Below are positions 6,510 through 37,150 of a stretch of DNA of 39,508 nucleotides, piece by piece. How positions within the stretch are numbered: the first letter of the stretch is position 1; each line of letters starts with the position of its first letter. The notes beneath the pieces are model-generated. The model saw only the letters and a list, made by a program, of their open reading frames with translations, was not told where the DNA came from and ran no database searches. The translations under genes and the position numbers were made by a program. The stretch comes from Escherichia phage RDN8.1. The DNA lies in sequence record MN414250.1; one strand, 5' to 3'.

Positions 6510-6553
6510 GACTCAAGGTCATGACTAAAAGTCGAGGCCTTCATGATTAACCA
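6506..6553 (+). promoter_or_regulatory. RNase III-like processing hairpin (T7 R1.1 position)
   Basis: Motif TAGACTCAAGGTCAT..GGCCTT(C/T)ATGATTA shared with 14025..14070 and 37062..37100; GGUCAU / GAGGCC arms can pair. Confidence 0.4.
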
Positions 6554-7066: not shown

Positions 7067-8113
7067 ATGACTACTACCATCAAGACCAACCCGCACCGCG
7101 CTGTAGATTACTCTGAGTCTGGCGTTAAGAAGGCACTAGAAGCAGCCGGGTCTCTGGAAGCTGAAGTGAAGTATGACGGTGTGCGGTTGAATATTCCGGT
7201 CTTCCCTGATGGGCGAACTGAATGGTTAAGCCGTGAGTCAAAGACGCTTCCGGCCTTAGACCATTTGTCAACAGTTGGTCAGGACATCGGAGCTTGCCGT
7301 GCGTCCGACTGGCGATGGTTCCTGAAGCAAGCAGGACATGAAGTATCTGGCCTGATGATTGATGGCGAGGTGATGGTCAAGGGTGTAGACTTCAACACGT
7401 CCTCAGGTCTTATCCGCACCATGTGGTCTGACCGCAAGAACTACAAGTGGAACATGAACCCTAAGGCCGATATGGAGACCAAGAAGTCTAACAAGGTTCC
7501 ATTCCAGATTAGCCCTGAGTTCCTACAAGTGGTCGTCTACGGGGTCATCGACCTTAACGTCATCAACGACCCGAAAGCCGAAGGCCCTATCCATAGCGTA
7601 ACTCGCCTGAAGGCCGAAGCTATTGTCCCTCTCCTCCAGAAATACTTCCCGGAAATCGACTGGGTTCTATCGGAGAGTCATACAGTGTTTAGTCTTGAGT
7701 CCCTTCGTGATTTGTACGAGGAGAAACGGGCAGATGGACACGAGGGTCTGGTAGTTAAAGACCCACTTGGGCGCTGGAAGCGTGGTAAGAAGTCGGGCAT
7801 GTGGAAAATGAAGCCAAGCGAAGAGGCAGACGGTCACGTTGTTAGACCCGTATGGGGAACAGAAGGTCTCGCAAACGAAGGTCTAGTAATTGGTTTCGAC
7901 GTTATGCTTGAGAACGGGATGGAGGTCTCCGCAACTAACATTAGTCGCGCCCTTATGTCCGAGTTCACCGAGAACGTCAAGTCCGACCCTGACTACTATA
8001 AAGGCTGGGCTTGCCAGATTACCTACATGGAGGAGACACCTGATGGCTCATTGCGGCACCCGTCATTCGACCAATGGCGAGGGACTGAGGACAATCCTAC
8101 AGTCAAGATTTAA
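7067..8113 (+). CDS. ATP-dependent DNA ligase (T7 gp1.3 homologue)
   Basis: 348 aa; IKTNP, EVKYDGVR (adenylation lysine motif), GWACQITYMEETPDGSLRHPSF match recalled T7 ligase. Confidence 0.95.
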   Translation: MTTTIKTNPHRAVDYSESGVKKALEAAGSLEAEVKYDGVRLNIPVFPDGRTEWLSRESKTLPALDHLSTVGQDIGACRASDWRWFLKQAGHEVSGLMIDGEVMVKGVDFNTSSGLIRTMWSDRKNYKWNMNPKADMETKKSNKVPFQISPEFLQVVVYGVIDLNVINDPKAEGPIHSVTRLKAEAIVPLLQKYFPEIDWVLSESHTVFSLESLRDLYEEKRADGHEGLVVKDPLGRWKRGKKSGMWKMKPSEEADGHVVRPVWGTEGLANEGLVIGFDVMLENGMEVSATNISRALMSEFTENVKSDPDYYKGWACQITYMEETPDGSLRHPSFDQWRGTEDNPTVKI

Positions 8114-8525
8114 AGTAGACGAGAGGTCAGCCTCAGGGCTGTCCCTTCACTCTGGACGTAAGGTAGGCAGTAAGAAAGCATCCGGTTATTGGACAGTGAA
8201 CGTCAGGACGCCGTGGGGACGCAAGCACCTACAGGTCCATCGGGTAATCTGGGAGTTGACATATGGCCCAATACCAGATGGCATGGAGATTGACCACATT
8301 GACCGAGACCCTTCCAACAACAGGCTTTCCAATCTGCGACTGGTGACTCACTCCGAGAACAACCAGAACAAAGGACAGATGTCCACCAACACTACCGGAG
8401 AGCGCCACATCTCCAAGGTTAAAGGTCGAAAGCTCTATTGCATCAAGAAGGTGATTAACGGAGAGCGTGTGGTCCGGTACACCAAGACCATAGCCGAGGC
8501 GGTAGCCTTAAGAGATTCATTATAA
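8043..8525 (+). CDS. HNH endonuclease; start uncertain (first in-frame ATG 8043 lies inside ligase; GTG 8196 also possible)
   Basis: [44 protein letters not shown]; paralogous to 37591..38031. Confidence 0.65.
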   Translation: MAHCGTRHSTNGEGLRTILQSRFKVDERSASGLSLHSGRKVGSKKASGYWTVNVRTPWGRKHLQVHRVIWELTYGPIPDGMEIDHIDRDPSNNRLSNLRLVTHSENNQNKGQMSTNTTGERHISKVKGRKLYCIKKVINGERVVRYTKTIAEAVALRDSL

Positions 8526-8585
8526 CGTCAACCCAGTGGTCTTCGGACTGCTGGGTTTCTTTGCGTCTGGACCCAGCGCGATGGG

Positions 8586-13857: not shown

Positions 13858-14022
13858 ATGTTTAAGAAACTTAAAGCAGCCTACCACGTGTTTATGTACA
13901 AGTGGTGGAACGAAGAGGCAAACTGCCTGTCCCGAATCCTCGGTGACCAGCGGTTCAACTCTGCGGCGTGGAAGAGAGCTAACCGGAAGTTTATGTATCA
14001 CTTCTTGCGTACAGACTTCTAG
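13858..14022 (+). CDS. Hypothetical small protein, 54 aa (T7 gene 4.x position)
   Basis: ATG after AGGAGAAC; ORF-track ORF 13840..14022. Confidence 0.4.
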   Translation: MFKKLKAAYHVFMYKWWNEEANCLSRILGDQRFNSAAWKRANRKFMYHFLRTDF

Positions 14023-14024
14023 GT

Positions 14025-14070
14025 CTAGACTCAAGGTCATTCAAATCGAGTGGCCTTTATGATTAGACTA
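14025..14070 (+). promoter_or_regulatory. RNase III-like processing hairpin (T7 R4.7 position)
   Basis: TAGACTCAAGGTCATTCAAATCGAGTGGCCTTTATGATTAGAC; GGUCAUUC pairs with GAGUGGCC. Confidence 0.45.
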
Positions 14071-14085
14071 AACGGAGGATTAACC

Positions 14086-16257
14086 ATGTTTGACCTTAAG
14101 GATATTTGGGGTTCTGACATCGAGACCAACGGTCTCCTTGACACCGTGTCCCAGTTCCATTGTGGGGTCCTGATTAATGCCGAGTCGAATGAGACCCTTA
14201 AGTATGGGGTAGCACCGATGGTCGGTATCGTCGGTGGCTTCAAAGAGTATGTACAGAAGGTGGAAGAGATTGCCGCAACACCTACAGGTATGCTGGTCTT
14301 CCATAACGGTATCAACTATGACGTCCCAGCTATCGACAAGCTGAAGCGTTTGTACTTTGGGAAACGATTTAACTTCCCGAAACACAAGATGATTGATACC
14401 TTGGTGTTGGGCCGCTTGATGTATCCCAACATTAAGTTCTCAGACATGGGCGCGGTGAAAGCTGGTCGTCTGCCTCCTAAGATGATGGGACGCCAGTCTC
14501 TTGAGGCTTGGGGCTATCGTCTCGGTGAGATGAAGGGTGAGTACAAACACGATTACGTTGCCAAGTGCAAGGCCGAAGGTATCGAATATAAGGCTGGGGA
14601 CGAATGGTTGTTCCCATCTCAGGAGATGCTGGACTATAACGTTCAAGACGTTGTGGTCACACTGGCGTTGTTCAAGAAGTTCCTGACTGACAAGTATTAC
14701 TTCCAGTATGAACAGTTCGCTTTCGAACAGATTCATGCGTTGCGTCTGGAACATGATGCTGCGTGGACATGTGCGAAGATGGAACGTAATGGCTATCCGA
14801 TGAACACAGAGATGGTCGAAGGCTTATATCGTGAACTCACTGTCAAACGTGCGGAGTTGCTGGACAAGCTGCGCTCGACTTTCGGTAGCTGGTACGCACC
14901 AAAGGGAGGCAAGGAGTTCTTCAGACACCCACGGACAGGTAAGGACCTTCCGAAGTACCCGAGAGTCGTGTATCCTAAGGTCGGTGGCATCTTTAAGAAG
15001 CCGAAGAACAAAGCTCAACGCTTAGGTCTTGAACCTTGTGAACGTGATACGCGAGACACGATGGAAGGAGCACCCTTCACGCCAATCACTTACGTTGAGT
15101 TTAATCCGGGAAGCGGAGACCACTTAGCGAAAGTCCTGATGGAGCGTGGCTGGGAGCCTGTTGATTTCACTGACACCGGGAAACCTGTAGTCGATGACGA
15201 GACGTTAGAACACGTTAAGTTGCCAGACGCAGAGGCTCAGGCTTGCGTAGAGCTGGTCCGTGAGTATCTGGTGGTCCAGAAGCGCATCGGTCAGGCTGCT
15301 GAAGGTAAGAACGCATGGTTGAAACTTGTGGGTCCAGACGGACGTATGCATGGTTCAATCAACCCTTGTGGTGCAGTAACCGGACGTGCGACCCATAGCT
15401 CACCAAACATGGCTCAGGTCCCAGCTAACGGTGCTCCATATGGTGAGACTTGCCGTGGTGCTTTCGGTGCAGCGTGGAACAAGAAGGACGGTAAGCCAGA
15501 CCCTTGGATTCAAGTAGGTGTAGATGCCTCAGGTCTTGAGCTTCGTTGTCTGGGGAACCGAGCGGCTCCGTTTGATGGTGGCGCATATGCGAAGACTGTA
15601 GTCGAAGGGGACATCCACTGGGCAAACGCAGTCAACGCTGGGTTAGCACCTAACGTCCCACGCGATAAGTCGAGCCACGACCATGATGCTTTCCGTAACA
15701 ACGCTAAGACGTTCATCTATGCGTTCCTGTATGGTGCAGGGGCCGCTAAGATTGGACTGATAGTCGGAGGTGGTAAGAAGGAAGGTTCAGCTCTCATGAA
15801 GAAATTCATTGAGGGTACACCAGCCATCAAGGACCTCAGGGAAGCTGTGAGTAATACGTTAATCTCAGACTCTAAGTGGGTGGATGGGGAGAACATCGTG
15901 AAGTGGAAACGCCGCTGGCTTAAAGGTCTGGATGGTCGACGCATTCACATCCGGTCCCCACACTCAGCGCTCAACGCCTTACTTCAGGGTGACGGTGCGG
16001 TGGTCTGTAAGCACTGGATTGTCGAGACTGAACGTATGCTCGAAGAGGCAGGGTATGTCCACGGCTGGGAAGGAGACTTCGCGTACATGGCATGGGTTCA
16101 CGACGAATTACAGATTGCGTGTCGTACTCAGGAGATTGCCGAAGAAGTCGTCAAGATTGCTCAACTTGCTATGCGTAAGGTGGGTGAGTTCTATAACTTT
16201 AAATGTGTCCTTGATACCGAAGGTAAGATTGGACCAACGTGGAAGGAGTGTCACTAA
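14086..16257 (+). CDS. DNA polymerase (T7 gp5 homologue)
   Basis: 723 aa from ATG after GGAGG; SLEAWGYRLGEMKGEYK, DYNVQDVVVT, DASGLELRC, AKTFIYAFLYGAG, FAYMAWVHDE match recalled T7 gp5. Confidence 0.97.
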   Translation: MFDLKDIWGSDIETNGLLDTVSQFHCGVLINAESNETLKYGVAPMVGIVGGFKEYVQKVEEIAATPTGMLVFHNGINYDVPAIDKLKRLYFGKRFNFPKHKMIDTLVLGRLMYPNIKFSDMGAVKAGRLPPKMMGRQSLEAWGYRLGEMKGEYKHDYVAKCKAEGIEYKAGDEWLFPSQEMLDYNVQDVVVTLALFKKFLTDKYYFQYEQFAFEQIHALRLEHDAAWTCAKMERNGYPMNTEMVEGLYRELTVKRAELLDKLRSTFGSWYAPKGGKEFFRHPRTGKDLPKYPRVVYPKVGGIFKKPKNKAQRLGLEPCERDTRDTMEGAPFTPITYVEFNPGSGDHLAKVLMERGWEPVDFTDTGKPVVDDETLEHVKLPDAEAQACVELVREYLVVQKRIGQAAEGKNAWLKLVGPDGRMHGSINPCGAVTGRATHSSPNMAQVPANGAPYGETCRGAFGAAWNKKDGKPDPWIQVGVDASGLELRCLGNRAAPFDGGAYAKTVVEGDIHWANAVNAGLAPNVPRDKSSHDHDAFRNNAKTFIYAFLYGAGAAKIGLIVGGGKKEGSALMKKFIEGTPAIKDLREAVSNTLISDSKWVDGENIVKWKRRWLKGLDGRRIHIRSPHSALNALLQGDGAVVCKHWIVETERMLEEAGYVHGWEGDFAYMAWVHDELQIACRTQEIAEEVVKIAQLAMRKVGEFYNFKCVLDTEGKIGPTWKECH

Positions 16258-16412
16258 TGAAGACTTACACCGAACAGGAGGTCAAAGACCTTATGCGCTC
16301 AGCGTGGTGGCATGGGCACGAGGAGTCTCGTTATAGCCCAAACCTCAGCGGCTCTTGTAGTCGTGACGTCCGTGACATTCTGAAAGACCATAATGAAGAA
16401 GGAGAAAGCTAA
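16257..16412 (+). CDS. Hypothetical small protein, 51 aa
   Basis: ATG overlaps pol stop (TAATG); not in ORF track. Confidence 0.3.
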   Translation: MKTYTEQEVKDLMRSAWWHGHEESRYSPNLSGSCSRDVRDILKDHNEEGES

Positions 16413-16699
16413 TGGCTATGACTAAACGCGCCCGTATTGGGTTTGACCTTAAGCTTGTCATCCCTGAAGAGATTAAGCAAGCTCTCATCCGAAAGTATAT
16501 TCGGGACTCTAAGCGAATCATTGAGGGAGATAAGACTCTTAGCGGGTTTGACCGTAAGGTGGCTCTTATGGCTGCTGAGTTAGGGCCTGAGGCTGCGATT
16601 GAGCTGGACCTGAAGTCAGGCATCGTGTATAAGATTAAGGCAGAGATGATGGAGAATGGAGCAACGTTCAGCAATTTCAGTGTGGGGTTCAAACGATGA
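16412..16699 (+). CDS. Gene 5.5-like protein (T7 gp5.5 is an H-NS binder), by position and size
   Basis: 95 aa; translationally coupled; assignment by synteny only. Confidence 0.45.
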   Translation: MAMTKRARIGFDLKLVIPEEIKQALIRKYIRDSKRIIEGDKTLSGFDRKVALMAAELGPEAAIELDLKSGIVYKIKAEMMENGATFSNFSVGFKR

Positions 16700-16905
16700 G
16701 TGAATACTTACGGGTCCTTGCGGCCCTTAAGTCCTGCCCGAAGACCTTCCAGTCCAACTATGTGCGCAACAACGCTGCACTTGTGGCTGAGGCTGCGAGT
16801 CGTGGACATCTGAGCTGCCTGTCTATGGACGGGCGTAACAACGGTGCGTGGGAGATTACCGCTGCTGGCACCAAGTTCCTGAACCAACACGGAGGATGCC
16901 TATGA
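16696..16905 (+). CDS. Gene 5.7-like protein
   Basis: 69 aa; LKSCPKTFQSNYVRNNA..VAEAASRGH..GAWEITA matches recalled T7 gp5.7. Confidence 0.6.
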   Translation: MSEYLRVLAALKSCPKTFQSNYVRNNAALVAEAASRGHLSCLSMDGRNNGAWEITAAGTKFLNQHGGCL

Positions 16906-17291
16906 GTAAGCTGATTGAAGACCTGAGGTCACAACTGATTGATAACCCGAGGTCGGGCGGCCTGTCTGCCGACTGGGAGCTTATTGAATCTGGTGAGTGG
17001 ACTGACAGTCATAAGTCAGAATCCAAAGCTGACATCGTTAAGCACATGCCTACTGGTCGCCTCTTTGAGGTGGACTTCTACCGCACTGGGGACCACTGGC
17101 AGGGCTACGAGACTGAGTTCTCAGGCGCTGTGGAGGTTGAACCATACGAGGCTGTTGTAGTCCTATACCGCCCGGTCAAGCTGCTGGACGTTGTGGTCCC
17201 GGCGATGAGTAAAGCCAAGGCTATCGAGCCATGCTGGGGCTGCATCGAGAGGGATGACCGCTTCCCACACACCTGCGGTAAGGAGGACTGA
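16902..17291 (+). CDS. Hypothetical protein with C-terminal Cys cluster (CWGC...HTC), about 129 aa
   Basis: ATG after GGAGGA, overlaps upstream stop (ATGA); ORF track 16848..17291. Confidence 0.5.
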   Translation: MSKLIEDLRSQLIDNPRSGGLSADWELIESGEWTDSHKSESKADIVKHMPTGRLFEVDFYRTGDHWQGYETEFSGAVEVEPYEAVVVLYRPVKLLDVVVPAMSKAKAIEPCWGCIERDDRFPHTCGKED

Positions 17292-18163
17292 TGCGCATGG
17301 GCGACAAGAAGATTGCTCTGGTTCTGGATGGCGACTACCTAGTGTTCTCGTCTATGGCTGCGGCTGAGGAAGAGACCGATTGGGGCGACTCAATCTGGAC
17401 GCTAATCTGCGACCACGAGAAGGCTAAGCGTATTCTGATGAACTCCATCAACGAGATAATCAAGAAGCGAAAGGCGTGGAAAGACGCTAAGATTGTGATG
17501 TGCTTCACTGATGATTATAACTGGCGTAAGGACGTCCTGCCCACCTATAAGGCCAACCGTAAAGGTTCTCGCAAGCCTGTAGGATACAAGAAGTTCGTAG
17601 CTGAAGTGATGGCCGACCCACGGTTCAACAGCTTCCTGAAGCCAACGCTTGAGGGCGATGACTGCATGGGCATCATTGGTACACGACCTCAGATTGTTGG
17701 CTGTGACCATGCGGTGTTGGTGTCCTGTGATAAGGACTTCAAGACTATCCCGAACTGTGAGTTCTTCTGGTTAACCACTGGTGAAATCCTGAGTCACACG
17801 ACTGCCGAGGCAGACTACTGGCACATGGAGCAGACCATCAAGGGTGACATGACGGATGGCTACGGCGGTATTCCGGGGTACGGTGAGGACACTACCCGTG
17901 CTTTCCTTGATGAGCCGTACTACTTCGTGCAAGAGACCCGCGAGCTGAAGACTGGTAAGAACAAAGGTCAGCTCAAAGTCGAGTGGAAGAAGTATCCGAA
18001 GCGCGAAGACCAGACGCTGTGGGACTGCATGGTGACTCTGGCTGCTAAAGCTGGGATGACCGAGGAGGAACTACTGGTCCAAGCTCAGGTAGCTCGCATC
18101 TGTCGCGCATCTGACTACGACCCTAAGTCCAAGGAGGTCATTCTGTGGACACCCTCCATGTAG
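17291..18163 (+). CDS. 5'-3' exonuclease (T7 gp6 homologue)
   Basis: 290 aa; LEGDDCMGIIG, SCDKDFKTIPNCEFFW, TLWDC..AKAGMTEEE match recalled T7 gp6. Confidence 0.95.
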   Translation: MRMGDKKIALVLDGDYLVFSSMAAAEEETDWGDSIWTLICDHEKAKRILMNSINEIIKKRKAWKDAKIVMCFTDDYNWRKDVLPTYKANRKGSRKPVGYKKFVAEVMADPRFNSFLKPTLEGDDCMGIIGTRPQIVGCDHAVLVSCDKDFKTIPNCEFFWLTTGEILSHTTAEADYWHMEQTIKGDMTDGYGGIPGYGEDTTRAFLDEPYYFVQETRELKTGKNKGQLKVEWKKYPKREDQTLWDCMVTLAAKAGMTEEELLVQAQVARICRASDYDPKSKEVILWTPSM

Positions 18164-18194: not shown

Positions 18195-18286
18195 ACTGTA
18201 CACGTTCAGTGGGACAAACCGCCCTAAACACTGAGTCTAACCGATAGTCATATCCTATCAATCCAACAGTCATCCATAGGTGAAAC

Positions 18287-18309
18287 ACTAAACTATCACT
18301 ATAGGGACT
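18287..18309 (+). promoter_or_regulatory. Phage RNAP promoter (phi6.5-like), predicted +1 at 18304
   Basis: CACTAAACTATCACTATAGGGACT. Confidence 0.65.
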
Positions 18310-18370
18310 TTAGGACCTAAGATATGACTATAAGATAGACTTTAGTCTTAACTTAAAGAGGAGATTCAAG

Positions 18371-19291: not shown

Positions 19292-19532
19292 ATCAATCAG
19301 TAAGGCTTTCAAGAAAGTAGTGGGTGGCGCATTGAACACTGTTGGTCTGGGCCAAGCGCCTACGCCTAAAGCTGCCGACACTCAGGTGGCTGCGGCCCCG
19401 GTGGAAGTCCCTCAGGACCAAGTGACTGACGTTGAGACCGATGTGACCGAGACCGATAAGAAGAAAGTGAAGCGTTCCGGTAAGCGTAGCCTTCAGGTCT
19501 CTCGCACCTCTGGTGGCGGTATTTCTATTTGA
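19284..19532 (+). CDS. Gene 7.3-like tail-associated protein, GTG start
   Basis: AAGGAG RBS; MGK..K N-terminus and C-terminal SGGGISI match recalled T7 gp7.3. Confidence 0.65.
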   Translation: MGKSISKAFKKVVGGALNTVGLGQAPTPKAADTQVAAAPVEVPQDQVTDVETDVTETDKKKVKRSGKRSLQVSRTSGGGISI

Positions 19533-19945
19533 CCGGGTGCATCGAGTGGAAGTGGGCCAAATCCTCAGCAGGATACGGGCAGAAGCGTATAGACGGTAAG
19601 TTAGTGTATATGCACCGACTCGCTTACGCCGATGCGCATGGTCCAATACCAGACGGAATGCTCGTCCGTCATAAGTGTGATAATCCAGCGTGTTTCAACG
19701 TAAACCACTTAGAGTTAGGAACTCAGCGTGATAACATGCAGGACGCCTCAAAGCGTGGTCGCGTCAATAAAACCAAAATGGCTAGAGGTGAAGACCAAGG
19801 GTTATCGGTTTTAACAGAAGACCTTGTTCGAGAAATCCGCAAGTCAACCGTAGGTTGTACAACACTGGCTCGTGAGCTAGGAGTTAGCAAGTCTACAGTT
19901 TTGCGTGTTCGCCAAGGTAAAACATGGAGGCACGTAGATGGCTGA
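19529..19945 (+). CDS. HNH endonuclease (T7 gene 7.7 position), probable TTG start
   Basis: CIEWKWAKSSAGYGQ...YMHRLAY...HKCDNPACFNVNHLELGTQRDN. Confidence 0.7.
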   Translation: MTGCIEWKWAKSSAGYGQKRIDGKLVYMHRLAYADAHGPIPDGMLVRHKCDNPACFNVNHLELGTQRDNMQDASKRGRVNKTKMARGEDQGLSVLTEDLVREIRKSTVGCTTLARELGVSKSTVLRVRQGKTWRHVDG

Positions 19946-21506
19946 ACGTGAAGGATTTGCTGCTGAAGGCGCGAAGTCAGTTTATGATAGATTGAAGAAC
20001 GGACGACAGCCTTACGAGACCCGCGCACAGAACTGCGCTGCCGTGACCATCCCGTCACTGTTTCCTAAGGAGTCCGACAACTCGTCTACGGAATATACAA
20101 CCCCGTGGCAGGCTGTAGGTGCTCGATGTCTGAATAACCTTGCGGCTAAGCTGATGCTGGCCCTGTTCCCTCAGTCACCGTGGATGCGACTTACGGTCTC
20201 CGAATATGAGGCCAAGACCTTGAGTCAGGACTCTGAGGCTGCTGCCCGTGTTGACGAGGGGCTGGCTATGGTCGAGCGTGTATTGATGGCCTACATGGAG
20301 ACTAACAGTTTCCGTGTCCCATTGTTTGAAGCTCTGAAGCAGCTTATCGTCTCCGGTAACTGTCTGCTCTACATTCCAGAGCCTGAACAGGGAACCTACA
20401 GTCCCATGCGAATGTACCGCTTAGTGTCTTACGTTGTTCAACGTGATGCATTCGGTAACATCTTGCAGATTGTGACTCTCGACAAGGTAGCGTTTAGTGC
20501 TCTACCGGAAGACGTGAAGTCTCAACTCAACGCAGACGACTATGAGCCTGACACCGAGCTTGAAGTGTATACGCACATCTACCGTCAGGACGACGAGTAT
20601 CTGCGATACGAGGAAGTGGAAGGCATTGAGGTAACAGGGACCGATGGTTCCTACCCGCTGACTGCGTGTCCGTACATCCCGGTACGAATGGTTCGACTGG
20701 ATGGTGAAGACTACGGTCGTTCTTACTGCGAGGAGTATCTGGGAGACCTGAACTCGCTGGAGACGATTACAGAAGCTATCACCAAAATGGCTAAGGTAGC
20801 CTCCAAGGTGGTGGGCCTCGTTAACCCGAACGGCATCACGCAACCTCGACGTCTGAACAAGGCGGCTACAGGTGAGTTCGTTGCTGGTCGCGTTGAGGAC
20901 ATCAACTTCCTGCAACTGACGAAAGGTCAGGACTTTACGATTGCTAAGTCGGTGGCTGATGCTATCGAGCAACGTTTAGGCTGGGCCTTCCTTCTTAATA
21001 GCGCTGTTCAGCGTAATGCCGAGCGGGTAACTGCTGAAGAGATTCGTTATGTTGCTGGCGAACTGGAGGCGACCTTAGGTGGCGTGTACTCAGTACAGTC
21101 ACAAGAGCTTCAGTTACCTATCGTCCGTGTGCTGATGAACCAGCTTCAGTCTGCTGGCATGATTCCTGACCTTCCGAAAGAAGCGGTAGAGCCTACGGTC
21201 TCCACTGGTCTGGAAGCGTTAGGTCGTGGTCAAGACTTAGAGAAGCTGACTCAGGCAGTCAACATGATGACCGGGCTACAGCCTCTGCAACAGGACCCAG
21301 ACATTAACTTGCCGACCCTGAAGCTGCGACTTCTGAATGCCTTGGGCATTGACACTGCTGGTCTACTGCTGACTCAGGACGAGAAGCTGCAACGTATGGC
21401 TGAACAATCTGCTCAAGGAGCTGTGGTCAACGGTGCGTCTGCTGCTGGTGCTAACATGGGCGCTGCCGTAGGTCAAGGAGCTGGTGAGGACATGGCTCAA
21501 GCCTAA
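19938..21506 (+). CDS. Portal (head-tail connector) protein (T7 gp8 homologue)
   Basis: 522 aa; GAKSVYDRLKN, YETRAQNCA, PSLFPK, YRLVSYVVQRDAFGN, RVTAEEIRYVAGELE match recalled T7 gp8. Confidence 0.97.
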   Translation: MAEREGFAAEGAKSVYDRLKNGRQPYETRAQNCAAVTIPSLFPKESDNSSTEYTTPWQAVGARCLNNLAAKLMLALFPQSPWMRLTVSEYEAKTLSQDSEAAARVDEGLAMVERVLMAYMETNSFRVPLFEALKQLIVSGNCLLYIPEPEQGTYSPMRMYRLVSYVVQRDAFGNILQIVTLDKVAFSALPEDVKSQLNADDYEPDTELEVYTHIYRQDDEYLRYEEVEGIEVTGTDGSYPLTACPYIPVRMVRLDGEDYGRSYCEEYLGDLNSLETITEAITKMAKVASKVVGLVNPNGITQPRRLNKAATGEFVAGRVEDINFLQLTKGQDFTIAKSVADAIEQRLGWAFLLNSAVQRNAERVTAEEIRYVAGELEATLGGVYSVQSQELQLPIVRVLMNQLQSAGMIPDLPKEAVEPTVSTGLEALGRGQDLEKLTQAVNMMTGLQPLQQDPDINLPTLKLRLLNALGIDTAGLLLTQDEKLQRMAEQSAQGAVVNGASAAGANMGAAVGQGAGEDMAQA

Positions 21507-21524
21507 ACTATCACTATAGGAACA
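21502..21524 (+). promoter_or_regulatory. Phage RNAP promoter (phi9-like), predicted +1 at 21519
   Basis: GCCTAAACTATCACTATAGGAACA; overlaps portal stop. Confidence 0.65.
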
Positions 21525-21526
21525 AC

Positions 21527-21620
21527 TAGAGCCACTCAAGGTGGGACTTACTGTAGCGCAAACAATGACCGTGGGTATTGAGCCTAAGTCATCCTACAGG
21601 TCCCACCTTGAGTGGCTCTA
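21527..21620 (+). other. Long hairpin in the gene 9 leader: perfect 21-bp inverted repeat (21527..21547 / 21600..21620) plus inner 6-bp pair
   Basis: TAGAGCCACTCAAGGTGGGAC and its exact reverse complement; CTGTAG (21551..21556) / CTACAG (21594..21599). Confidence 0.8.
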
Positions 21621-21650
21621 CCTATTAACGACTTAAAGGAGAATGACTCA

Positions 21651-22535
21651 ATGTCTCAATCAGTTTATGCCGAGTTCGGCGTTAGCTCTAACGCAATCAC
21701 TGGTTCCGTTGAGGACCTGAACGAACACCAGAAGTCTATGCTTGAACGGGACGTAGCTGTTCGTGATGGCGACGACGCTATTACCTTCAAGCAACTGGAA
21801 GCCGAGAACGAAGAGGCTACCGAAGAAGACGCGAACGTCGAAGAGACTGAAGGTGAAGAAGACCACGAGTACGATGGAGAAGAGCCTGAGACCGATGGTG
21901 AACAACCTGAGTTCGTCGAACTGGGTGATGCACCTAAAGAGCTGACCGAAAGTGTCACCGCTCTGGATGAAAACGAAGCTGCATTCGACGATATGGTGTC
22001 TTCTGCTGTAGAAGCTGGCAAGGTCACTGCTGATGAAATTACCGCTATCAAGGCTGAATACGCCAAGGACGGTAAGCTGTCTGACGCATCCTACGCTAAG
22101 TTGCAGGAAGCAGGTTACACCAAGCGTTTCGTAGATTCGTTTGTCCGTGGTCAGGAAGCTCTGGCTGAACAGTATGCTGCTGGTGTGGTTCGCTACGCTG
22201 GTGGGGCTGAACAGTTTAATCGCATCCTGTCCCACCTTGAGTCAAACGACCCGTCAACTCGTGAAGCACTGGAAGCTGCTATCGTTCGTAAGGACATTGC
22301 GACTACCAAAGCTCTGCTGAATCTTGCTGGAAAGACTCTGGGTAAAGCTGTAGGCGTTAAACCTCAGCGTACCATCACCACTCAGGCTAAACCTGTGGTA
22401 GCACCTAAGGCTCCTCAGACCGAAGCATTCAGCTCAAAGGCTGACATGATTAAGGCTATGAGTGACCCACGATACCTGCGTGACGCTAAGTACACTATGG
22501 AAGTTCGCGCTAAGGTAGCTGCCTCAAGCCTGTAG
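21651..22535 (+). CDS. Scaffolding protein (T7 gp9 homologue)
   Basis: ATG after AAGGAG; VYAEFGV, acidic central region, KAMSDPRY match recalled T7 gp9; upstream GTG 21612 lies inside the hairpin. Confidence 0.9.
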   Translation: MSQSVYAEFGVSSNAITGSVEDLNEHQKSMLERDVAVRDGDDAITFKQLEAENEEATEEDANVEETEGEEDHEYDGEEPETDGEQPEFVELGDAPKELTESVTALDENEAAFDDMVSSAVEAGKVTADEITAIKAEYAKDGKLSDASYAKLQEAGYTKRFVDSFVRGQEALAEQYAAGVVRYAGGAEQFNRILSHLESNDPSTREALEAAIVRKDIATTKALLNLAGKTLGKAVGVKPQRTITTQAKPVVAPKAPQTEAFSSKADMIKAMSDPRYLRDAKYTMEVRAKVAASSL

Positions 22536-22663: not shown

Positions 22664-23125
22664 ATGGCAAACGTTCCGGGTCAGAAAGTTGGTACAGACC
22701 AAGGTAAAGGCAAATCTGGTTCCGACGCTCTGGCGTTGTTCCTGAAGGTATTTGCTGGTGAAGTCCTGACCGCATTCACTCGCCGCTCCGTAACTGCTGA
22801 CAAGCATATTGTCCGCACCATTCAGAACGGTAAGTCTGCTCAGTTCCCGGTAATGGGTCGCACCTCTGGTGTCCCGGCTGCATCCGATGAAAACATCGCT
22901 GGTCTGGGCAAAGCGTCTGTGCTGGAAGTTGGTACTAAAGCCGACCTGAACACTCCGGCTAAACTGGGTGAAGCAATCATCGGTCAACTGACCATTGCTC
23001 GTGCGAAGCTGACCTCCAACTACGTTCCTGCTGGCGACCGTTACTTCTACACAACGCCGGACAACTACTCTGCAATCCTCGCGGCTCTGATGCCTAACGC
23101 TGCTCGGGCAACATCCGTAACGTAA
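22664..23125 (+). CDS. Major capsid protein (T7 gp10A homologue), N-terminal ORF; lacks about 73 residues relative to T7 and ends at an out-of-frame junction
   Basis: GKSAQFPV.GRT then ENI.GLG...NYVPA.DR.FY..PD.YSAILAALMPNAA match T7 gp10A residues about 58-71 and 152-226; stop at 23123. Confidence 0.85.
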   Translation: MANVPGQKVGTDQGKGKSGSDALALFLKVFAGEVLTAFTRRSVTADKHIVRTIQNGKSAQFPVMGRTSGVPAASDENIAGLGKASVLEVGTKADLNTPAKLGEAIIGQLTIARAKLTSNYVPAGDRYFYTTPDNYSAILAALMPNAARATSVT

Positions 23126-23460
23126 TGGGCTTCGTTGTGGTTGAGGTTCCGCACCTGACCGCTGGTGGTGCTGGTGAGACCCGTGGTGACGATGGTATTT
23201 CCATTGCATCTGGTCAGAAGCACGGCTTCCCAGAAACCTCTAGCTCTACCGTTAAGGTGGCGCTGGACAACGTTGTGGGCCTGTTCTCTCACCGCTCTGC
23301 TGTGGGTACTGTTAAGCTGCGTGATTTGGCGCTGGAACGTGACCGTGACGTCGATGCTCAGGGCGACCTGATTGTCGGTAAGTACGCTATGGGTCACGGC
23401 GGTCTGCGTCCTGAAGCGGCTGGCGCACTGGTTTTCAAAGCAGCAGCTCCGCAGGGTTAA
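23125..23460 (+). CDS. Major capsid protein, C-terminal ORF (-1 frame relative to 22664..23125)
   Basis: IRNVMGFVVVEVPHLTAGGAG...SAVGTVKLRDLALER...YAMGHGGLRPEAAGALVFK matches T7 gp10A C-terminus. Confidence 0.85.
   Translation: MGFVVVEVPHLTAGGAGETRGDDGISIASGQKHGFPETSSSTVKVALDNVVGLFSHRSAVGTVKLRDLALERDRDVDAQGDLIVGKYAMGHGGLRPEAAGALVFKAAAPQG
23430..23439 (+). other. Putative -1 ribosomal frameshift site (G GTT TTC AAA) giving the minor capsid form
   Basis: Same GGTTTTCAAA motif as recalled at the end of T7 gene 10A; -1 frame open to 23723. Confidence 0.5.
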
Positions 23461-23723
23461 TGACCTTTAAGTTGGCTGGGGATTCGTCCCCGGTCGTTGA
23501 GACACTCGAATCGACAGTAGGTGCGAGCCTAAAGGTGGAACTGACCGAACTAGCAGATGTGACCGACTGGTCCCTGCTTGAGGTCTCCACGGATAGTGCC
23601 GTGTCCTACTCCCGCCGAGCGAATAGTCTCTACTTTAAGGCTGCGGTGGCTGGTGACTACCAGATTATCATCGGCTATGATGGCTCGCCTGTGCGGTCCT
23701 TCAAGCTGCAAGTCTCTAACTAA
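23460..23723 (+). CDS. Minor-capsid C-terminal extension (about 87 aa, beta-rich), reached by -1 frameshift or from ATG 23460
   Basis: -1 frame relative to capsid C-terminal ORF; followed directly by terminator. Confidence 0.5.
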   Translation: MTFKLAGDSSPVVETLESTVGASLKVELTELADVTDWSLLEVSTDSAVSYSRRANSLYFKAAVAGDYQIIIGYDGSPVRSFKLQVSN

Positions 23724-26729: not shown

Positions 26730-26736
26730 CCTCTTG

Positions 26737-26787
26737 AAAGGCCTATAGTTTCTACTTAACTATCACTATAGGGACTATAGGCCCTTT
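26737..26787 (+). other. Inverted repeat bracketing the phi13 promoter (AAAGGCCTATAG / CTATAGGCCCTTT); possible R13-like processing structure
   Basis: 12-bp complementary arms with one bulged C around promoter 26754..26776. Confidence 0.35.
26754..26776 (+). promoter_or_regulatory. Phage RNAP promoter (phi13-like), predicted +1 at 26771
   Basis: CTTAACTATCACTATAGGGACT. Confidence 0.6.
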
Positions 26788-26804
26788 AAGTTATAGGAGA
26801 CTTT

Positions 26805-34084: not shown

Positions 34085-36559
34085 ATGGCAGACAACAAGA
34101 CCCTCATCAAGTATCCCACTGGTGAGACACAATATCGTATTCCATTCGATTACCTCGCAAGGTCTTTCGTAAAGGTAAGCCTTGAGGTCTCCACCGACTC
34201 CACTCTTAGTTATCCGCTGACACCGGGTAATGACTATCGGTTCCTGAATGCCACTACCATTGAAATCCTCATTCCGCAGGGTTCCTATGATGTGCTGCAA
34301 ATTCGTCGATTCACTGACACTACTCCTCTGGTCGGATTCCGCGATGGCTCAGTGCTGACAGCTAACGACCTTACAGTCTCTGAGCTTCAGGCAATCCATA
34401 TCGCAGAAGAAGGCCGTGACCAAACGTTAGAGCTGACCGAGAGCTACGTTGAGACTGCTGCTAATATCCGCGACGAAGTTAAGGAGATGCTGGAGGAAAT
34501 GCGGGATGACTTAATCATTCAGCGTGTGTATAAGGATAGCTTTGAGAAGGGTCAGACACTCAACCTTCCCGGCGAGTCCCTGCGACTGGAAGCTACTAAC
34601 ATCTACTATGAGTGGACGGGTAGCTTCCCTAAAGTAGTACCTGCTGGCTCTACACCTGATACGACTGGTGGTGTGACTGCTGGTGCGTGGCGTATGGTAG
34701 GTAACAGCAATATGGAAGCGTTCATGCTCAGTGGGTCTTACCATGTGTTCTCAACCATAGATGACCTGAAGTCCCTTAAGATTAACCCTTCGGTGACAGT
34801 CAACATGCAGGTAGGCTCCAGAGCGATGACCCTTAAGCTGGTTCAGGCAGCTGGTAAGTTCTACAACAAGCGTGTCTACTGGGACATAGTTGCAGCGGAA
34901 AACCCGAACACGTTGAGCGTTCAGCTTGTTAATGGGCTGTGGGCTGCCATGGTAGTGGAAGACGAGCTGTACCCTGCGGTCTTTGGATGGGGCGAGAAGG
35001 ATGACCCTGCTGCTAATGCCGCTGCTTACCATAGAGCATGTGCTGTGGCTGAGGCAAACCCTAACGTCCACACCATTCGTCTACACGCTGGCGCCTTCCG
35101 CAGTGATGGTATAGTGGCTCAGGTTGCACGTAGACGCTTCCGGTTCACTGGGGCTGGCTGGGATAATACCTTTATCCTCTCTGAGTCCTCTGACATCTCG
35201 TTCCACCACAAAGGGTTCAACGAGTCTAACCCAGCACTGGACAAGCGATACTTCCAGCAGATTGTCGATGGCTTCACCGTAGACGGTCAGATGGGTACAC
35301 GTAAAGTCCAAGCCGCTCAACGTACACTCTCCACAGTCCACTACGCCGAGCTTGGCTATAAGTCTGTAAACCATAGGGTGTCACAGGTGGATATTTGTGG
35401 ACTAGTTGTCAAGTGGTACGGTATGACTGGTGCTGGTGTGTATGACGGTGTGTGGTCACAGCATGGCCTACGAGTACGCTACAACTCTATCAAGCTGAAT
35501 GGCTATATTGGTGGAGCGCCTAATCAAATCAACACCATGATTGGTGGCTTCCGTACCAAGCTTATAGCCCCTGCTAAGGCTGGTGACACCACGATTCAGG
35601 TAGAGAACCTGCGCAACGGTCAGACCTACGACATCCTAGAGGTTGGCGGTGGTACACTTGAGGCTCCACGCATAAAGTCAAGAACAGGGAACACCATCAC
35701 ACTGTTCGCCCCTCTGGAGTACGACCACACGGTTAACGCAGTGGTTAGACTTCCGGTTGTTGGGACTGAGGTTCAGGGTACTCTTGAGGTTGGTATCATC
35801 TACATTGCTGACGCTGAGGCTACAACCGTTCATGGCATCTACTCAGAGGAATCTAAGTTCTACCTTTCTGGACTTCTTCAAGGTTGTGAGATTCACGGCA
35901 ACAGTATTGCGGAAGCAAACCCTACTGTACAGGTTGACTCTAACGTAGACCCTAGAAGTCACATCCGAATTGTGTCTAACAACACGTACTTCCCAGTGAC
36001 AATCGCAGTGGCCGATGAGACCGGAGCAGTAAACAACAGGCTTGACCTCAAGCGCTTCCCTAACATCGAGATTAAGGGCAACACACGCGCTCAGAACTCA
36101 ATCTGGGTAAATGGTGTATACTCCTTTAGTTCTCTCCGAGTATACCGAACGTATGACTCTGGGATGAGCGATGTGTCAATGACCACTATGGAATTCGACG
36201 GTCTATCTGCTCAGTTGGCTGGCGGAGCTGTAAGTGATGCCCTCCTGCTCGCATCGTTCCCAGCAACAAGGCCGTATAAATGGGATGGCTACACCTTTGA
36301 CCTTACGGCTACTTATCGTCGAGTTGGTAAGATGGGTGGCGGCACACTCAAACGTGCTGGTCACGCGCTAACCGATGGTACGACCCACGATGTGAACGTT
36401 CAACGCTACGTCTCAACTGGCAGTACTTGGTCTGAGGCTGGCGTAGACCTTCTGTTCGGTGCCACTGGTACCCGCGCGTCTGTTACTGCTCGAGGTGAGG
36501 CTAGTGGTGCTTGGCCTACGAGTATGTCAATCAGAGGTATCATCACCCACGCAAACTGA
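34085..36559 (+). CDS. Tail fibre / tailspike: T7 gp17-like N-terminal adaptor domain fused to a large non-T7 C-terminal domain (putative receptor-binding or polysaccharide-degrading domain)
   Basis: 824 aa; N-terminal about 150 aa (YRIPFDYLARSFVKV, FRDGSVLTANDL, LQAIHIAEEGRD) match recalled T7 gp17; remainder shows no T7 similarity. Confidence 0.88.
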   Translation: MADNKTLIKYPTGETQYRIPFDYLARSFVKVSLEVSTDSTLSYPLTPGNDYRFLNATTIEILIPQGSYDVLQIRRFTDTTPLVGFRDGSVLTANDLTVSELQAIHIAEEGRDQTLELTESYVETAANIRDEVKEMLEEMRDDLIIQRVYKDSFEKGQTLNLPGESLRLEATNIYYEWTGSFPKVVPAGSTPDTTGGVTAGAWRMVGNSNMEAFMLSGSYHVFSTIDDLKSLKINPSVTVNMQVGSRAMTLKLVQAAGKFYNKRVYWDIVAAENPNTLSVQLVNGLWAAMVVEDELYPAVFGWGEKDDPAANAAAYHRACAVAEANPNVHTIRLHAGAFRSDGIVAQVARRRFRFTGAGWDNTFILSESSDISFHHKGFNESNPALDKRYFQQIVDGFTVDGQMGTRKVQAAQRTLSTVHYAELGYKSVNHRVSQVDICGLVVKWYGMTGAGVYDGVWSQHGLRVRYNSIKLNGYIGGAPNQINTMIGGFRTKLIAPAKAGDTTIQVENLRNGQTYDILEVGGGTLEAPRIKSRTGNTITLFAPLEYDHTVNAVVRLPVVGTEVQGTLEVGIIYIADAEATTVHGIYSEESKFYLSGLLQGCEIHGNSIAEANPTVQVDSNVDPRSHIRIVSNNTYFPVTIAVADETGAVNNRLDLKRFPNIEIKGNTRAQNSIWVNGVYSFSSLRVYRTYDSGMSDVSMTTMEFDGLSAQLAGGAVSDALLLASFPATRPYKWDGYTFDLTATYRRVGKMGGGTLKRAGHALTDGTTHDVNVQRYVSTGSTWSEAGVDLLFGATGTRASVTARGEASGAWPTSMSIRGIITHAN

Positions 36560-36600
36560 GGACAATTCGGTCAAGGATGACCATTACAATAGGAGACTTT

Positions 36601-37058: not shown

Positions 37059-37061
37059 GTG

Positions 37062-37100: not shown

Positions 37101-37150
37101 CACTAACGTAGGTGACTCTACGTGAATTCTTTTAAAACAGGAGGGCAACT

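What the first reader, a model, noticed from the sequence alone, without database searches (positions are those of the whole stretch)
21527..21620. Perfect 21-bp inverted repeat hairpin in the gene 9 leader
TAGAGCCACTCAAGGTGGGAC (21527..21547) and its exact reverse complement (21600..21620) flank a 52-nt spacer that contains a further 6-bp complementary pair, giving about 27 bp of pairing directly after the promoter start at 21519 and before the gene 9 RBS. Unusually long and perfect for a T7-family intergenic region. It could be an RNase III processing site, a stabilising or translation-controlling structure, or a cruciform/recombination site. The ORF-track GTG start at 21612 sits inside the stem and is therefore unlikely to be used.
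Basis: seen in the sequence. Interest (0 to 1): 0.55.

Follow-up and report, generated by a model that had tools for sequence, protein, structure and literature searches.

The report
Long perfect hairpin before scaffold gene
A T7-like (Kayfunavirus) phage carries an unusually long, perfectly paired RNA hairpin between the promoter and ribosome-binding site of its scaffold gene; it is one rare allele among eight unrelated hairpin cassettes that related phages swap at this spot, and it most likely acts as an RNase III cutting site.

Summary
A perfect 21-nt inverted repeat (21527-21547 / 21600-21620), extended by 6 bp across a UUA bulge, lies at +9 to +102 of the phi9-type transcript and ends 15 nt before the gene 9 Shine-Dalgarno. 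It is far beyond chance (RNA dG -60.7 kcal/mol, z -6.9) and is the only perfect inverted repeat of this kind in the window.

The window is a Kayfunavirus (K1F-like). Only 13 of 231 related GenBank phages carry this element, always in this slot. The others carry seven unrelated cassettes between the same conserved promoter start (GGAAC) and translation-initiation region (CCUAUUAAC..AAGGAG). All eight fold with a closing stem, but this allele is about three times more stable than the rest.

Changes in the stem keep pairing: one G-C to A-U swap, one G.U, no disruptions. One allele is a 30-bp perfect palindrome. The left arm carries ACUCAAGGU, the 5' signature of T7-family RNase III sites, but the usual internal loop is fully paired here.

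The best reading is an RNase III-type intercistronic processing hairpin that would be cut on both strands. An uncleaved stabiliser hairpin is the main rival. It is not a mobile element, terminator or small gene. This is a new variant of a known kind, of moderate interest.

The parts
19938..21506 (+). gene 8 (portal / head-tail connector), upstream cistron
   Evidence: A 522-aa ORF, 95-99% identical to Kayfunavirus portal genes.
21507..21524 (+). phi9-type phage RNA polymerase promoter ACTATCACTATAGGAACA; transcript +1 = G21519
   Evidence: One of 9 matches to the phage promoter consensus in the window, against 0.01 expected. CR44b annotates a predicted promoter at the same place.
21519..21526 (+). 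unpaired 5' leader GGAACAAC, conserved in nearly all cassette types
   Evidence: Unpaired in the MFE and centroid structures. Conserved across alleles.
21527..21547 (+). left arm of the perfect 21-bp stem; contains ACUCAAGGU (21534-21542), the 5' box of T7-family RNase III sites
21548..21550 (+). UUA bulge; paired (to an inserted UAA) in the IMG/VR allele L023, which is a 30-bp perfect palindrome
21551..21556 (+). 5' half of the 6-bp stem extension (CUGUAG), pairs with 21594-21599
   Evidence: invariant pairs.
21557..21593 (+). apical region with a small inner hairpin (21565-21569/21588-21592 and 21572-21576/21582-21586); the most variable part of the element
   Evidence: The fold is. 11 of 38 columns vary, against 6 of 60 in the long stem.
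21594..21599 (+). 3' half of the 6-bp stem extension (CUACAG)
21600..21620 (+). right arm of the perfect 21-bp stem
   Evidence: Position 21607 covaries with 21540 (C/G to T/A), and 21604 C to T gives G.U.
21621..21650 (+). conserved translation-initiation region CCUAUUAACGACUUAAAGGAGAAUGACUCA (Shine-Dalgarno AAGGAG at 21636-21641)
   Evidence: Conserved in all cassette types except G and H, which differ slightly. It is not sequestered by the hairpin.
21651..22535 (+). gene 9 (capsid assembly / scaffolding protein), 294 aa
   Evidence: In frame with ORF 21612-22535. The 885-nt length matches the SH3, CR44b and K1F annotation. The product has a Pfam PF05396 hit on record.

Best explanation
The element is a transcribed RNA hairpin. 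It fills a structured-leader slot between the phi9-type promoter start (GGAACAAC) and the gene 9 translation-initiation region. Because it lies wholly downstream of +1, it is present both in phi9-initiated transcripts and in read-through transcripts coming from gene 8.

In this allele the slot holds a two-turn, fully Watson-Crick helix: 21 bp, a UUA bulge, then 6 bp. The helix carries the CUCAAGG box of T7-family RNase III sites. I infer that host RNase III binds it and, because the usual internal loop is replaced by base pairs, cuts both strands near the middle of the 21-bp stem (roughly 21534-21538 and 21609-21613). That would separate gene 8 mRNA from gene 9 mRNA and trim phi9 transcripts to a short 5'-monophosphate leader ahead of the intact ribosome-binding site. 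The result would be to set gene 9 mRNA level and stability independently of gene 8.

Shown here: the structure, its position, preservation of pairing, the motif, and the allelic cassette system. Inferred: cleavage by RNase III, its position, and its effect on expression.
For: Structure and selection:
- The fold is stable far beyond chance.
- Among 8 distinct alleles the long stem shows one compensatory G-C to A-U pair (4 against 4 haplotypes), one G-C to G-U, and no disrupted pair in 27-30 bp.
- The G.U is tolerated only in the + sense RNA; on the other strand it would be a C.A mismatch.
- The stem varies less than the apical region (6 of 60 against 11 of 38 columns, p = 0.027).
- Allele L023 restores the bulge to a 30-bp perfect helix.

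The slot is structural in general:
- Eight unrelated cassettes all close with a stem next to the transcript's 5' end. Per-type shuffle p-values are 0.003-0.23; combined by Fisher's method (my calculation) this is about 1e-4.
- Types C and B also show compensatory or wobble changes.

Link to RNase III:
- The helix length meets the roughly 22-bp, two-turn ideal substrate, and long regular dsRNA is cut largely independently of sequence (PMC3867540).
- R1.1[WC], a T7 site with its internal loop replaced by Watson-Crick pairs, is cut at both target phosphodiesters (PMC1540722).
- The left arm contains ACUCAAGGU. This 9-mer occurs 10 times in the window against 0.37 expected. All of its + strand copies outside the element are in promoter leaders or canonical RNase III-like hairpins (14022-14069, 37058-37104, 6515-6541).
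- CUCAAGG sits at T7 R0.3, R0.5, R1.1, R4.7, R6.5 and R18.5 (the site coordinates are from my own knowledge of Dunn and Studier 1983).
- By inspection against the proximal-box rules of PMC1540722, several registers of the stem have A-U/U-A at pb2 and pb4, so the stem is not blocked by antideterminants in every register.
Against: - There are no cleavage data.
- The 3' half of the canonical T7 signal (GGCCUUUAUGAUU and the asymmetric internal loop) is absent.
- In the register defined by the CUCAAGG box, pb4 is a C-G pair, which is a catalytic antideterminant. The distal-box positions are G-C/A-U rather than U-A/U-G (rules).
- The box's G-C pair is exactly the one that changes to A-U in half of the alleles, so the box is not conserved as such.
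- T7 itself has no RNase III site at this position (own knowledge; one search shows only a short branched leader).
- Double-strand cleavage would leave no protective 3' hairpin on gene 8 mRNA, unlike classical T7 sites.
- Covariation rests on very few events among closely related sequences (only 1 pair changed on both sides).
- 94% of relatives manage without this allele.
Confidence: 0.5

Rival explanations
1. The hairpin is an uncleaved stabiliser or insulator. It is not cut but acts as a physical barrier. It would block 3'-to-5' exonucleases at the end of gene 8 mRNA, impede 5'-end-dependent RNase E attack on gene 9 mRNA, and keep the ribosome-binding site free of upstream pairing. This is the same job the seven shorter cassettes and the T7 phi10 leader stem-loop are thought to do.
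For: - All eight cassette types, and the phi9 leaders of T7, T3 and other Studiervirinae, share a stem that closes next to the 5' end.
- The phi10 leader of this phage has the classical 5'-terminal stem-loop GGGAGACC..GGUUUCCC.
- The hairpin leaves the Shine-Dalgarno free.
- C-G at pb4 and a non-canonical distal box in the CUCAAGG register could make it bind RNase III poorly or resist cleavage.
Against: - Eight nucleotides remain unpaired at the 5' end. Protective 5' stem-loops need at most about 2-4 unpaired nucleotides (own knowledge: Emory, Bouvet and Belasco 1992).
- A 27-30 bp regular helix is much more than a barrier needs; the other cassettes manage with 8-10 bp.
- Such a helix is the kind of dsRNA that E. 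coli RNase III degrades.
Confidence: 0.3
2. The palindrome is a neutral by-product. It arose by an inverted duplication or template-switch event in a leader slot that tolerates almost any sequence. Its perfection would reflect recent origin or DNA-level palindrome correction rather than selection for a function of this particular helix.
For: - The slot accepts eight unalignable sequences.
- Type A is rare (13 of 231).
- Allele L023 is a 30-bp perfect palindrome, as expected just after an inverted duplication.
- Compensatory change in a palindrome can also be produced by template switching between arms (established for quasipalindromes; own knowledge).
- Only a few substitution events are available to judge from.
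Against: - The element sits on at least three different flank backgrounds, so it has persisted and spread by recombination.
- The only uncompensated change is G.U, which preserves RNA pairing but breaks DNA symmetry.
- The stem is more conserved than the loop.
- The arm carries a motif that is otherwise restricted to the phage's structured RNA signals.
Confidence: 0.12
3. The element acts at the DNA level. It could be a cruciform or hairpin in single-stranded DNA that serves as a recombination hotspot or a protein-binding site, or that is sensed by host defences.
For: - The single-stranded DNA fold is also very stable (-33.9 kcal/mol, z -7.3).
- Both strands fold equally well.
- Palindromic DNA of T7-like phages, including RNase III sites, triggers the Lamassu DdmABC system (PMC11707656).
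- The cassettes are exchanged between lineages.
Against: - The 52-nt spacer disfavours cruciform extrusion (own knowledge).
- The seven alternative cassettes have stems too short for cruciforms, yet they are exchanged just as freely.
- The G.U-type change breaks DNA symmetry.
- No repeated protein-binding motif is evident.
- Being a defence trigger would be a cost, not a function.
Confidence: 0.05
4. The element is either a miniature mobile element (MITE-like, 21-bp terminal inverted repeats with a TA target duplication) or a small protein-coding gene (ORF 21541-21636, annotated as hypothetical in three records).
For: - The terminal inverted repeats begin and end with TA.
- The ORF is annotated in EPr2, vB_Aba_01KA and vB_Eco_1RS.
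- Three adjacent third-position changes occur in HC12/6925.
Against: Against a mobile element:
- There is one copy per genome, always in the same slot.
- There are no copies in 185,579 bacterial and archaeal genomes or in JGI metagenomes beyond single-arm hits inside an unrelated coding motif.
- The element replaces other sequence rather than being inserted.

Against a gene:
- The ORF has a TAG stop in L023 and no Shine-Dalgarno.
Confidence: 0.02

Closest known systems
T7-family RNase III processing signals (R0.3, R0.5, R1.1, R4.7, R6.5, R13, R18.5) and their engineered fully paired derivative R1.1[WC]
   Same: It is an intercistronic hairpin on the transcribed strand of a T7-like phage, about two helical turns long. 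It has the CUCAAGG box followed by an AAGG/CCUU helix, and it is closely associated with a phage promoter. Like R1.1[WC], the region that is normally an internal loop is fully base-paired.
   Different: The natural sites have an asymmetric internal loop and the conserved 3' half GGCCUUUAUGAUU, and they are cut on one strand, leaving a protective 3' hairpin. This element has neither. It lies entirely downstream of the promoter start, whereas R6.5 and R13 embed the promoter. It occupies a position (8/9) where T7 has no site. Its stem is much longer and uninterrupted.
5'-terminal stabiliser stem-loops (T7 phi10 / g10 leader; E. coli ompA 5' UTR hairpin)
   Same: It is a promoter-proximal stem-loop in a 5' UTR, upstream of and not overlapping the ribosome-binding site. 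The sister cassettes in the same slot, and this phage's own phi10 leader, look like this class.
   Different: It starts at +9 rather than at the 5' end, and it is three times more stable and longer than needed. It is also internal to read-through transcripts.
Lambda sib / retroregulation-type RNase III hairpins (double-strand cleavage leading to decay)
   Same: It is a long, nearly perfect helix expected to be cut on both strands, which would expose new ends.
   Different: sib acts from the 3' side of the int message and is defined genetically. Nothing here shows a destabilising outcome.

Membership tests
T7-family RNase III processing signal | Intercistronic position on the transcribed strand of a T7-like phage | tested here: met
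   It lies between gene 8 and gene 9 on the + strand, downstream of the phage promoter.
T7-family RNase III processing signal | Helix of about two turns (about 20-22 bp) available to the enzyme | tested here: met
   21 bp perfect plus 6 bp across a 3-nt bulge, and 30 bp perfect in allele L023. The length criterion comes from PMC3867540.
T7-family RNase III processing signal | Conserved 5' half (A/C)CUCAAGG at the base of the upper stem | tested here: met
   ACUCAAGGU is at 21534-21542. The same box is in the window's canonical sites and in T7 R0.3, R0.5, R1.1, R4.7, R6.5 and R18.5. Half of the type A alleles have CUCAAAG instead.
T7-family RNase III processing signal | Conserved 3' half GGCCUUUAUGAUU with an asymmetric internal loop that holds the scissile bond | tested here: not met
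   The right arm reads CACCUUGAGUGGCUCUA and is fully paired, with no internal loop. Compare.
T7-family RNase III processing signal | No antideterminant base pairs at proximal-box positions 2 and 4 in a usable register | tested here: inconclusive
   Checked by inspection against the rules in PMC1540722. In the CUCAAGG register pb4 is C-G, which is inhibitory. Other registers (stem bp 8, 10 and 12) have A-U/U-A at pb2 and pb4. There is no quantitative predictor.
T7-family RNase III processing signal | Cleavage by RNase III in vitro or rnc-dependent ends in vivo | not testable with these tools
   No transcript-end data were found for any type A phage. The SH3 paper does not mention the element.
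5'-terminal stabiliser stem-loop (ompA / T7 g10 type) | Stem begins within about 0-4 nt of the transcript 5' end | tested here: not met
   Eight unpaired nucleotides (GGAACAAC) precede the stem. Sister cassettes G, H, B and C pair from nt 1-2. The rule itself is from my own knowledge (Emory, Bouvet and Belasco 1992).
5'-terminal stabiliser stem-loop (ompA / T7 g10 type) | Located in the 5' UTR without occluding the ribosome-binding site | tested here: met
   The stem ends at 21620 and the Shine-Dalgarno is at 21636-21641, unpaired to the stem.
Miniature inverted-repeat mobile element | Multiple dispersed copies within or between genomes | tested here: not met
   There is one copy per genome, always in the same slot. 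There are no paired-arm copies in bacterial genomes or metagenomes.
Intrinsic / T7 class I terminator | Stable hairpin followed directly by a U run | tested here: not met
   The stem is followed by CCUAUUAACGAC, and the terminator scan found nothing on the + strand here.
Any curated Rfam family | Score at or above the family's gathering threshold | tested here: not met
   There were no hits at gathering thresholds in the whole window. The only hit was a generic long-hairpin match to mir-1756, at 30 bits against a threshold of 100.

The most novel reading that the evidence does not exclude
The phi9 leader of Kayfunaviruses is a dedicated hypervariable 'RNA cassette' locus. It is the only non-coding segment of the genome that is replaced wholesale between close relatives: eight unalignable structured alleles, reshuffled across flank backgrounds, while the phi10 leader 1 kb away stays homologous. 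This turnover would be driven by diversifying selection from host factors that sense or cut structured nucleic acid, such as RNase III, dsRNA-sensing systems, or palindrome-sensing systems like Lamassu/DdmABC. Under this reading the long perfect palindrome is a high-risk, high-reward allele, kept rare (about 6%) by such defences.
Probability: 0.12. Interest if true: 0.7.

Novelty: new variant of a known kind. Interest (0 to 1): 0.4.

Why it matters
If the hairpin is cut by RNase III, it would add a processing site at a position (gene 8/9) where the T7 paradigm has none. It would also be a natural counterpart of the engineered fully paired substrate R1.1[WC], useful for asking what double-strand rather than single-strand cleavage does to neighbouring late mRNAs.

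The wider finding is more useful. This one leader slot holds eight interchangeable, unrelated structured cassettes in otherwise near-identical phages. That offers a ready-made natural allele series for testing how 5'-leader structure sets expression of the scaffold gene, and whether host nucleases or palindrome-sensing defences drive the turnover. It also matters for engineering T7-like phages and expression cassettes.

Tried and rejected
- **Mobile element.** The arm 19-mer was scanned in IMG/VR, 185,579 bacterial and archaeal genomes, and JGI metagenomes. Only the two known phage contigs had both arms. The six other hits are single arms, four of them inside a conserved bacterial coding motif (..MMSHSKWDPYNTDH..). 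Rejected.
- **Small ORF 21541-21636.** Three adjacent third-position changes in HC12/6925 looked like coding constraint. But L023 has an in-frame TAG, and there is no Shine-Dalgarno. Rejected.
- **Origin from gene 9.** An exact 14-mer of the right arm recurs at 22229-22242 inside gene 9, with CATCCT next to it. However, 7 of 150 architecture-preserving shuffles score as well, the gene 9 segment is an ordinary conserved codon run, and it does not covary with the arms. Treated as chance.
- **Homology between cassette types.** Local alignments of type A against types B-H in both orientations gave only one marginal match, to type D (13 of 15, p about 0.003-0.007 before correction for 36 tests). 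The types are effectively unalignable.
- **Rfam, tRNA and terminator scans.** Nothing relevant was found.
- **Harvesting more type A alleles through the spurious ORF.** An exact look-up of gp9 gave one identical Logan contig, and gp8 gave none.
- **Base-coverage comparison of whole genomes.** This missed the slot because BLAST extends across it. It was replaced by a sliding-identity scan.
- **Literature.** Searches for Kayfunavirus or K1F with RNase III, and the SH3 paper, gave no description of this element.

Full report
**1. The observation**

The window carries TAGAGCCACTCAAGGTGGGAC at 21527-21547 and its exact reverse complement at 21600-21620, with 52 nt between them. A further 6 bp (21551-21556 with 21594-21599) continue the helix after a 3-nt UUA bulge, and the apex forms a small hairpin.

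The arm occurs nowhere else in the window, against 0.00 expected. As RNA, 21519-21660 folds at -60.7 kcal/mol against -33.1 +/- 4.0 for dinucleotide shuffles (z -6.9). The 94-nt element alone gives z -9.7 on the + strand and -8.9 on the - strand. As DNA the fold is -33.9 kcal/mol (z -7.3).

Six inverted repeats in the window have arms no more than 150 nt apart. This is the only perfect one; the others are 75-88% complementary.

The element is real and not an assembly artefact. It is in 13 GenBank phage records, two IMG/VR contigs, and a Logan assembly of run SRR9686322 that is identical to the window across it.

**2. The setting**

The window is a Kayfunavirus, a K1F-like member of the T7 family. 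The best matches over gene 8 to gene 9 are Citrobacter phages SH3 and CR44b, and 231 records match in all.

- Gene 8 (portal) ends at 21506.
- The phage promoter ACTATCACTATAGGAACA lies at 21507-21524, with +1 at G21519. It is one of nine consensus matches in the window, and CR44b annotates a predicted promoter at the same place.
- The hairpin spans +9 to +102.
- The conserved CCUAUUAACGACUUAAAGGAG follows, and gene 9 starts at ATG 21651. This gives the 885-nt gene annotated in relatives.
- The Shine-Dalgarno (21636-21641) is not paired with the stem.

**3. One allele of a cassette system**

Only 13 of the 231 related records contain the 94-nt element, and always at this place. Other Kayfunaviruses carry different sequence between the same conserved borders, GGAAC(AAC) and CCUAUUAAC. 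I distinguished eight types. Their GenBank record counts are:

| Type | Records | Note |
|---|---|---|
| A | 13 | this window |
| B | 88 | CR44b, Salmonella Typhi phages |
| C | 34 | K1F itself |
| D | 24 | |
| E | 21 | |
| F | 3 | |
| G | 20 | |
| H | 17 | |

Together these account for 220 of the 231 records, each with one copy per genome.

The types are mutually unalignable. The best cross-type match is 13 of 15 nt between A and D, which is not significant after correction for the number of comparisons.

Cassette type does not follow the flanks. The window's flanks are 97% and 93% identical to type B CR44b. Type A phages BHUENT8 and ENT2 have flanks 92% and 98% identical to a type E phage, and only 80% identical downstream to the window. 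The cassettes have therefore been moved between lineages, or the lineages recombined around them.

The phi10 leader, 1 kb downstream, is a single homologous sequence in all of these phages. It has the classical 5'-terminal stem-loop GGGAGACC..GGUUUCCC.

I also ran a sliding-identity comparison of the whole window with seven complete genomes, one per cassette type. Segment 21534-21613 is the only replaced segment that does not overlap an ORF. All the others are accessory-gene modules or coding regions.

**4. What the cassettes share, and how type A differs**

All eight types fold so that the first nucleotides of the transcript pair with the nucleotides just before the conserved CCUAUUAAC. Against shuffles of the interior, the per-type p-values for this closing stem are 0.003-0.23. 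Combined by Fisher's method (my calculation) this is about 1e-4. This is real but not overwhelming, because the ends of random RNAs often pair.

Type C shows one compensatory pair in its closing stem, and type B shows several wobble-compatible changes.

The phi9 leaders of T7, T3 and other Studiervirinae have the same plan, with perfect repeats of only 5-8 bp and dG of -15 to -34 kcal/mol.

Type A is the outlier. It folds at -57 kcal/mol (z -8.8), against -14 to -23 kcal/mol (z -0.7 to -4.6) for the other seven. It also leaves 8 nt unpaired at the 5' end.

**5. Evidence that the pairing is maintained**

I compared eight distinct type A haplotypes.

- The long stem has one pair that switches G-C to A-U, four haplotypes against four.
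- One pair changes G-C to G-U.
- No pair is broken.
- The IMG/VR allele L023 has a TAA insertion that pairs the bulge and makes a 30-bp perfect palindrome (-65.8 kcal/mol).
- Variable columns are 6 of 60 in the stem (three of them this indel) against 11 of 38 in the apical part (p = 0.027).

The G.U change is compatible with the + sense RNA only. This supports an RNA-level constraint. The number of independent events is small, however, and DNA-level palindrome correction could mimic the compensatory change.

**6. The link to RNase III**

The window contains canonical T7-type RNase III hairpins: a lower stem, an internal loop ACUC/UUAUGA, and an upper stem AAGGUCA..UGGCCUU. They lie at 14022-14069 and 37058-37104, with a weaker one at 6515-6541. 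There are also imperfect long hairpins around the promoters at 18292 and 26759 and at 1155-1300, which correspond in place to T7 R6.5, R13 and R0.3.

In T7 itself, the sequences at the published R-site coordinates (from my own knowledge of Dunn and Studier 1983) show (A/C)CUCAAGG..GGCCUUUAUGAUU at R0.3, R0.5, R1.1, R4.7, R6.5 and R18.5.

The left arm of the type A hairpin contains ACUCAAGGU. This 9-mer occurs ten times in the window against 0.37 expected. All + strand copies outside the element lie in leaders or R-like sites.

In type A, the four nucleotides that form the 5' side of the internal loop in canonical sites (ACUC) are instead paired with GAGU. The 3' consensus is absent.

The published biochemistry is relevant here:
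- The ideal E. coli RNase III substrate is a 22-bp helix. Long regular dsRNA is cut largely irrespective of sequence, and internal loops or bulges are what restrict cleavage to one strand (PMC3867540).
- R1.1[WC], the T7 R1.1 signal with its loop replaced by Watson-Crick pairs, is cut at both target phosphodiesters (PMC1540722).
- By the proximal-box rules of that paper, the CUCAAGG register of type A has canonical pb1-pb3 but a C-G at pb4, which is a catalytic antideterminant, and a non-canonical distal box. Other registers near the middle of the stem have A-U/U-A at pb2 and pb4.

I therefore regard cleavage on both strands as likely but unproven. The G-C pair of the box is the one that becomes A-U in half of the alleles.

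**7. Most likely mechanism**

Shown: this is a transcribed, structure-maintained hairpin in a slot where structure of some kind is always present. It is contained both in phi9-initiated RNA and in read-through RNA from gene 8.

Inferred: host RNase III cuts both strands of the 21-bp stem. This would uncouple gene 8 and gene 9 mRNAs and convert phi9 transcripts to a 5'-monophosphate form with a short leader ahead of an intact ribosome-binding site.

I put this at about 0.5. The main rival, at about 0.3, is that the helix is not cut and serves, like its shorter sister cassettes, as a stabilising barrier. Against that rival, 8 unpaired nucleotides at the 5' end are more than protective 5' stem-loops tolerate (own knowledge: Emory, Bouvet and Belasco 1992), and the helix is far longer than a barrier needs.

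The remaining readings:
- Neutral palindrome from an inverted duplication: about 0.12.
- DNA-level role: about 0.05.
- Mobile element or small gene: about 0.02.

The mobile-element and small-gene readings are addressed by the searches listed under tried and rejected.

**8. Comparison with what is known, and novelty**

The element works most like a T7-family RNase III signal, and specifically like the engineered fully paired R1.1[WC]. It fails one defining sequence and structure feature of the natural family, namely the 3' consensus with its internal loop. It also sits where T7 has no site. I therefore file it as a new variant of a known kind, not a member in good standing.

I found no description of it, or of the cassette polymorphism, in the searchable literature or in the SH3 genome paper. 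Rfam has nothing.

One paper is relevant to possible costs. Palindromic DNA of T7-like phages, including RNase III sites, triggers the Lamassu DdmABC system of Vibrio cholerae (PMC11707656). That such pressure drives the cassette turnover is speculation, which I rate at about 0.12.

**9. Verdict**

The added value is the discovery that this is a rare allele of an eight-allele structured-leader slot. Interest is moderate (0.4).

Noticed in passing
window 22664-23723: The major capsid gene 10 is broken into three ORFs in three frames (22664-23125, 23125-23460, 23460-23723). Compared with SH3, CR44b and K1F, it has a 228-nt in-frame deletion just after 22871 and a second frameshifting deletion of about 30 nt near 23105-23115. 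A Logan contig of apparently the same phage (SRR9686322_192, locus L098) is identical up to 22872 and then continues with the full-length capsid sequence. The deletion is therefore peculiar to this record, either an assembly artefact or a defective variant.
   Followed up: partly
window 21519-21650 and loci L018-L038, L057: The phi9 leader slot holds eight mutually unalignable structured cassettes across Kayfunaviruses. The GenBank record counts are A 13, B 88, C 34, D 24, E 21, F 3, G 20 and H 17. They are shuffled relative to the flanking genes. The phi10 leader, 1 kb downstream, is one homologous sequence in the same phages. Why this slot alone turns over is unexplained.
   Followed up: yes
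window 14022-14069, 37058-37104, 6515-6541: These are canonical T7-type RNase III-like hairpins (GACUCAAGGUCAU..loop..GUGGCCUUUAUGAUU, with a lower stem and an internal loop). They correspond in place to sites ahead of the DNA polymerase gene, ahead of gene 18.5, and after gene 1.
   Followed up: partly
window 18234-18341, 26733-26790, 1155-1300: These are long imperfect inverted repeats (75-88% complementary). Two of them enclose phage promoters (at 18292 and 26759), as T7 R6.5/phi6.5 and R13/phi13 do. The third is a 146-nt interrupted helix (-59 kcal/mol) in the early region, like R0.3.
   Followed up: partly
window, 10 sites (3445, 6511, 14029, 21534, 22571, 37066 on +; 12657, 20217, 21605, 22234 on -): The 9-mer ACTCAAGGT is about 27-fold over-represented (10 occurrences against 0.37 expected). 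Every + strand copy lies in a promoter leader or an RNase III-like hairpin.
   Followed up: partly
L090 (T7) 21865-21950; L056/L058 (T3-like); L046: The phi9 leaders of the T7/T3 group form a closing stem plus two hairpins. The second has a tRNA T-arm-like sequence (AAGGUUGGAGUCCUU; AAGGUUCGAGUCCUUA in L046). ARAGORN finds no tRNA in the window itself.
   Followed up: no
window 22223-22242: Gene 9 contains CATCCT-GTCCCACCTTGAGT, which matches the right arm and its upstream neighbour (CATCCTACAG-GTCCCACCTTGAGT). A shuffle test (7 of 150) and the lack of covariation with the arms in relatives suggest chance.
   Followed up: yes
window 19529-19945, 37591-38031, 16256-17304, 8098-8527, 34421-36579: These are gene-sized modules absent from most of the seven representative Kayfunavirus genomes. 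Two small ORFs (19529-19945, 37591-38031) align only with CR44b, at positions where CR44b annotates homing endonucleases. There are accessory ORFs at 16256-17304 and 8098-8527. The C-terminal two-thirds of the tail-fibre gene (34421-36579) is also replaced.
   Followed up: no
L007, L008, L087, L089: The arm 19-mer GAGCCACTCAARGTGGGAC recurs in unrelated bacteria and metagenomes, inside a conserved coding motif (..MMSHSKWDPYNTDH..). This is a coincidence of codons, not a relative of the hairpin.
   Followed up: yes
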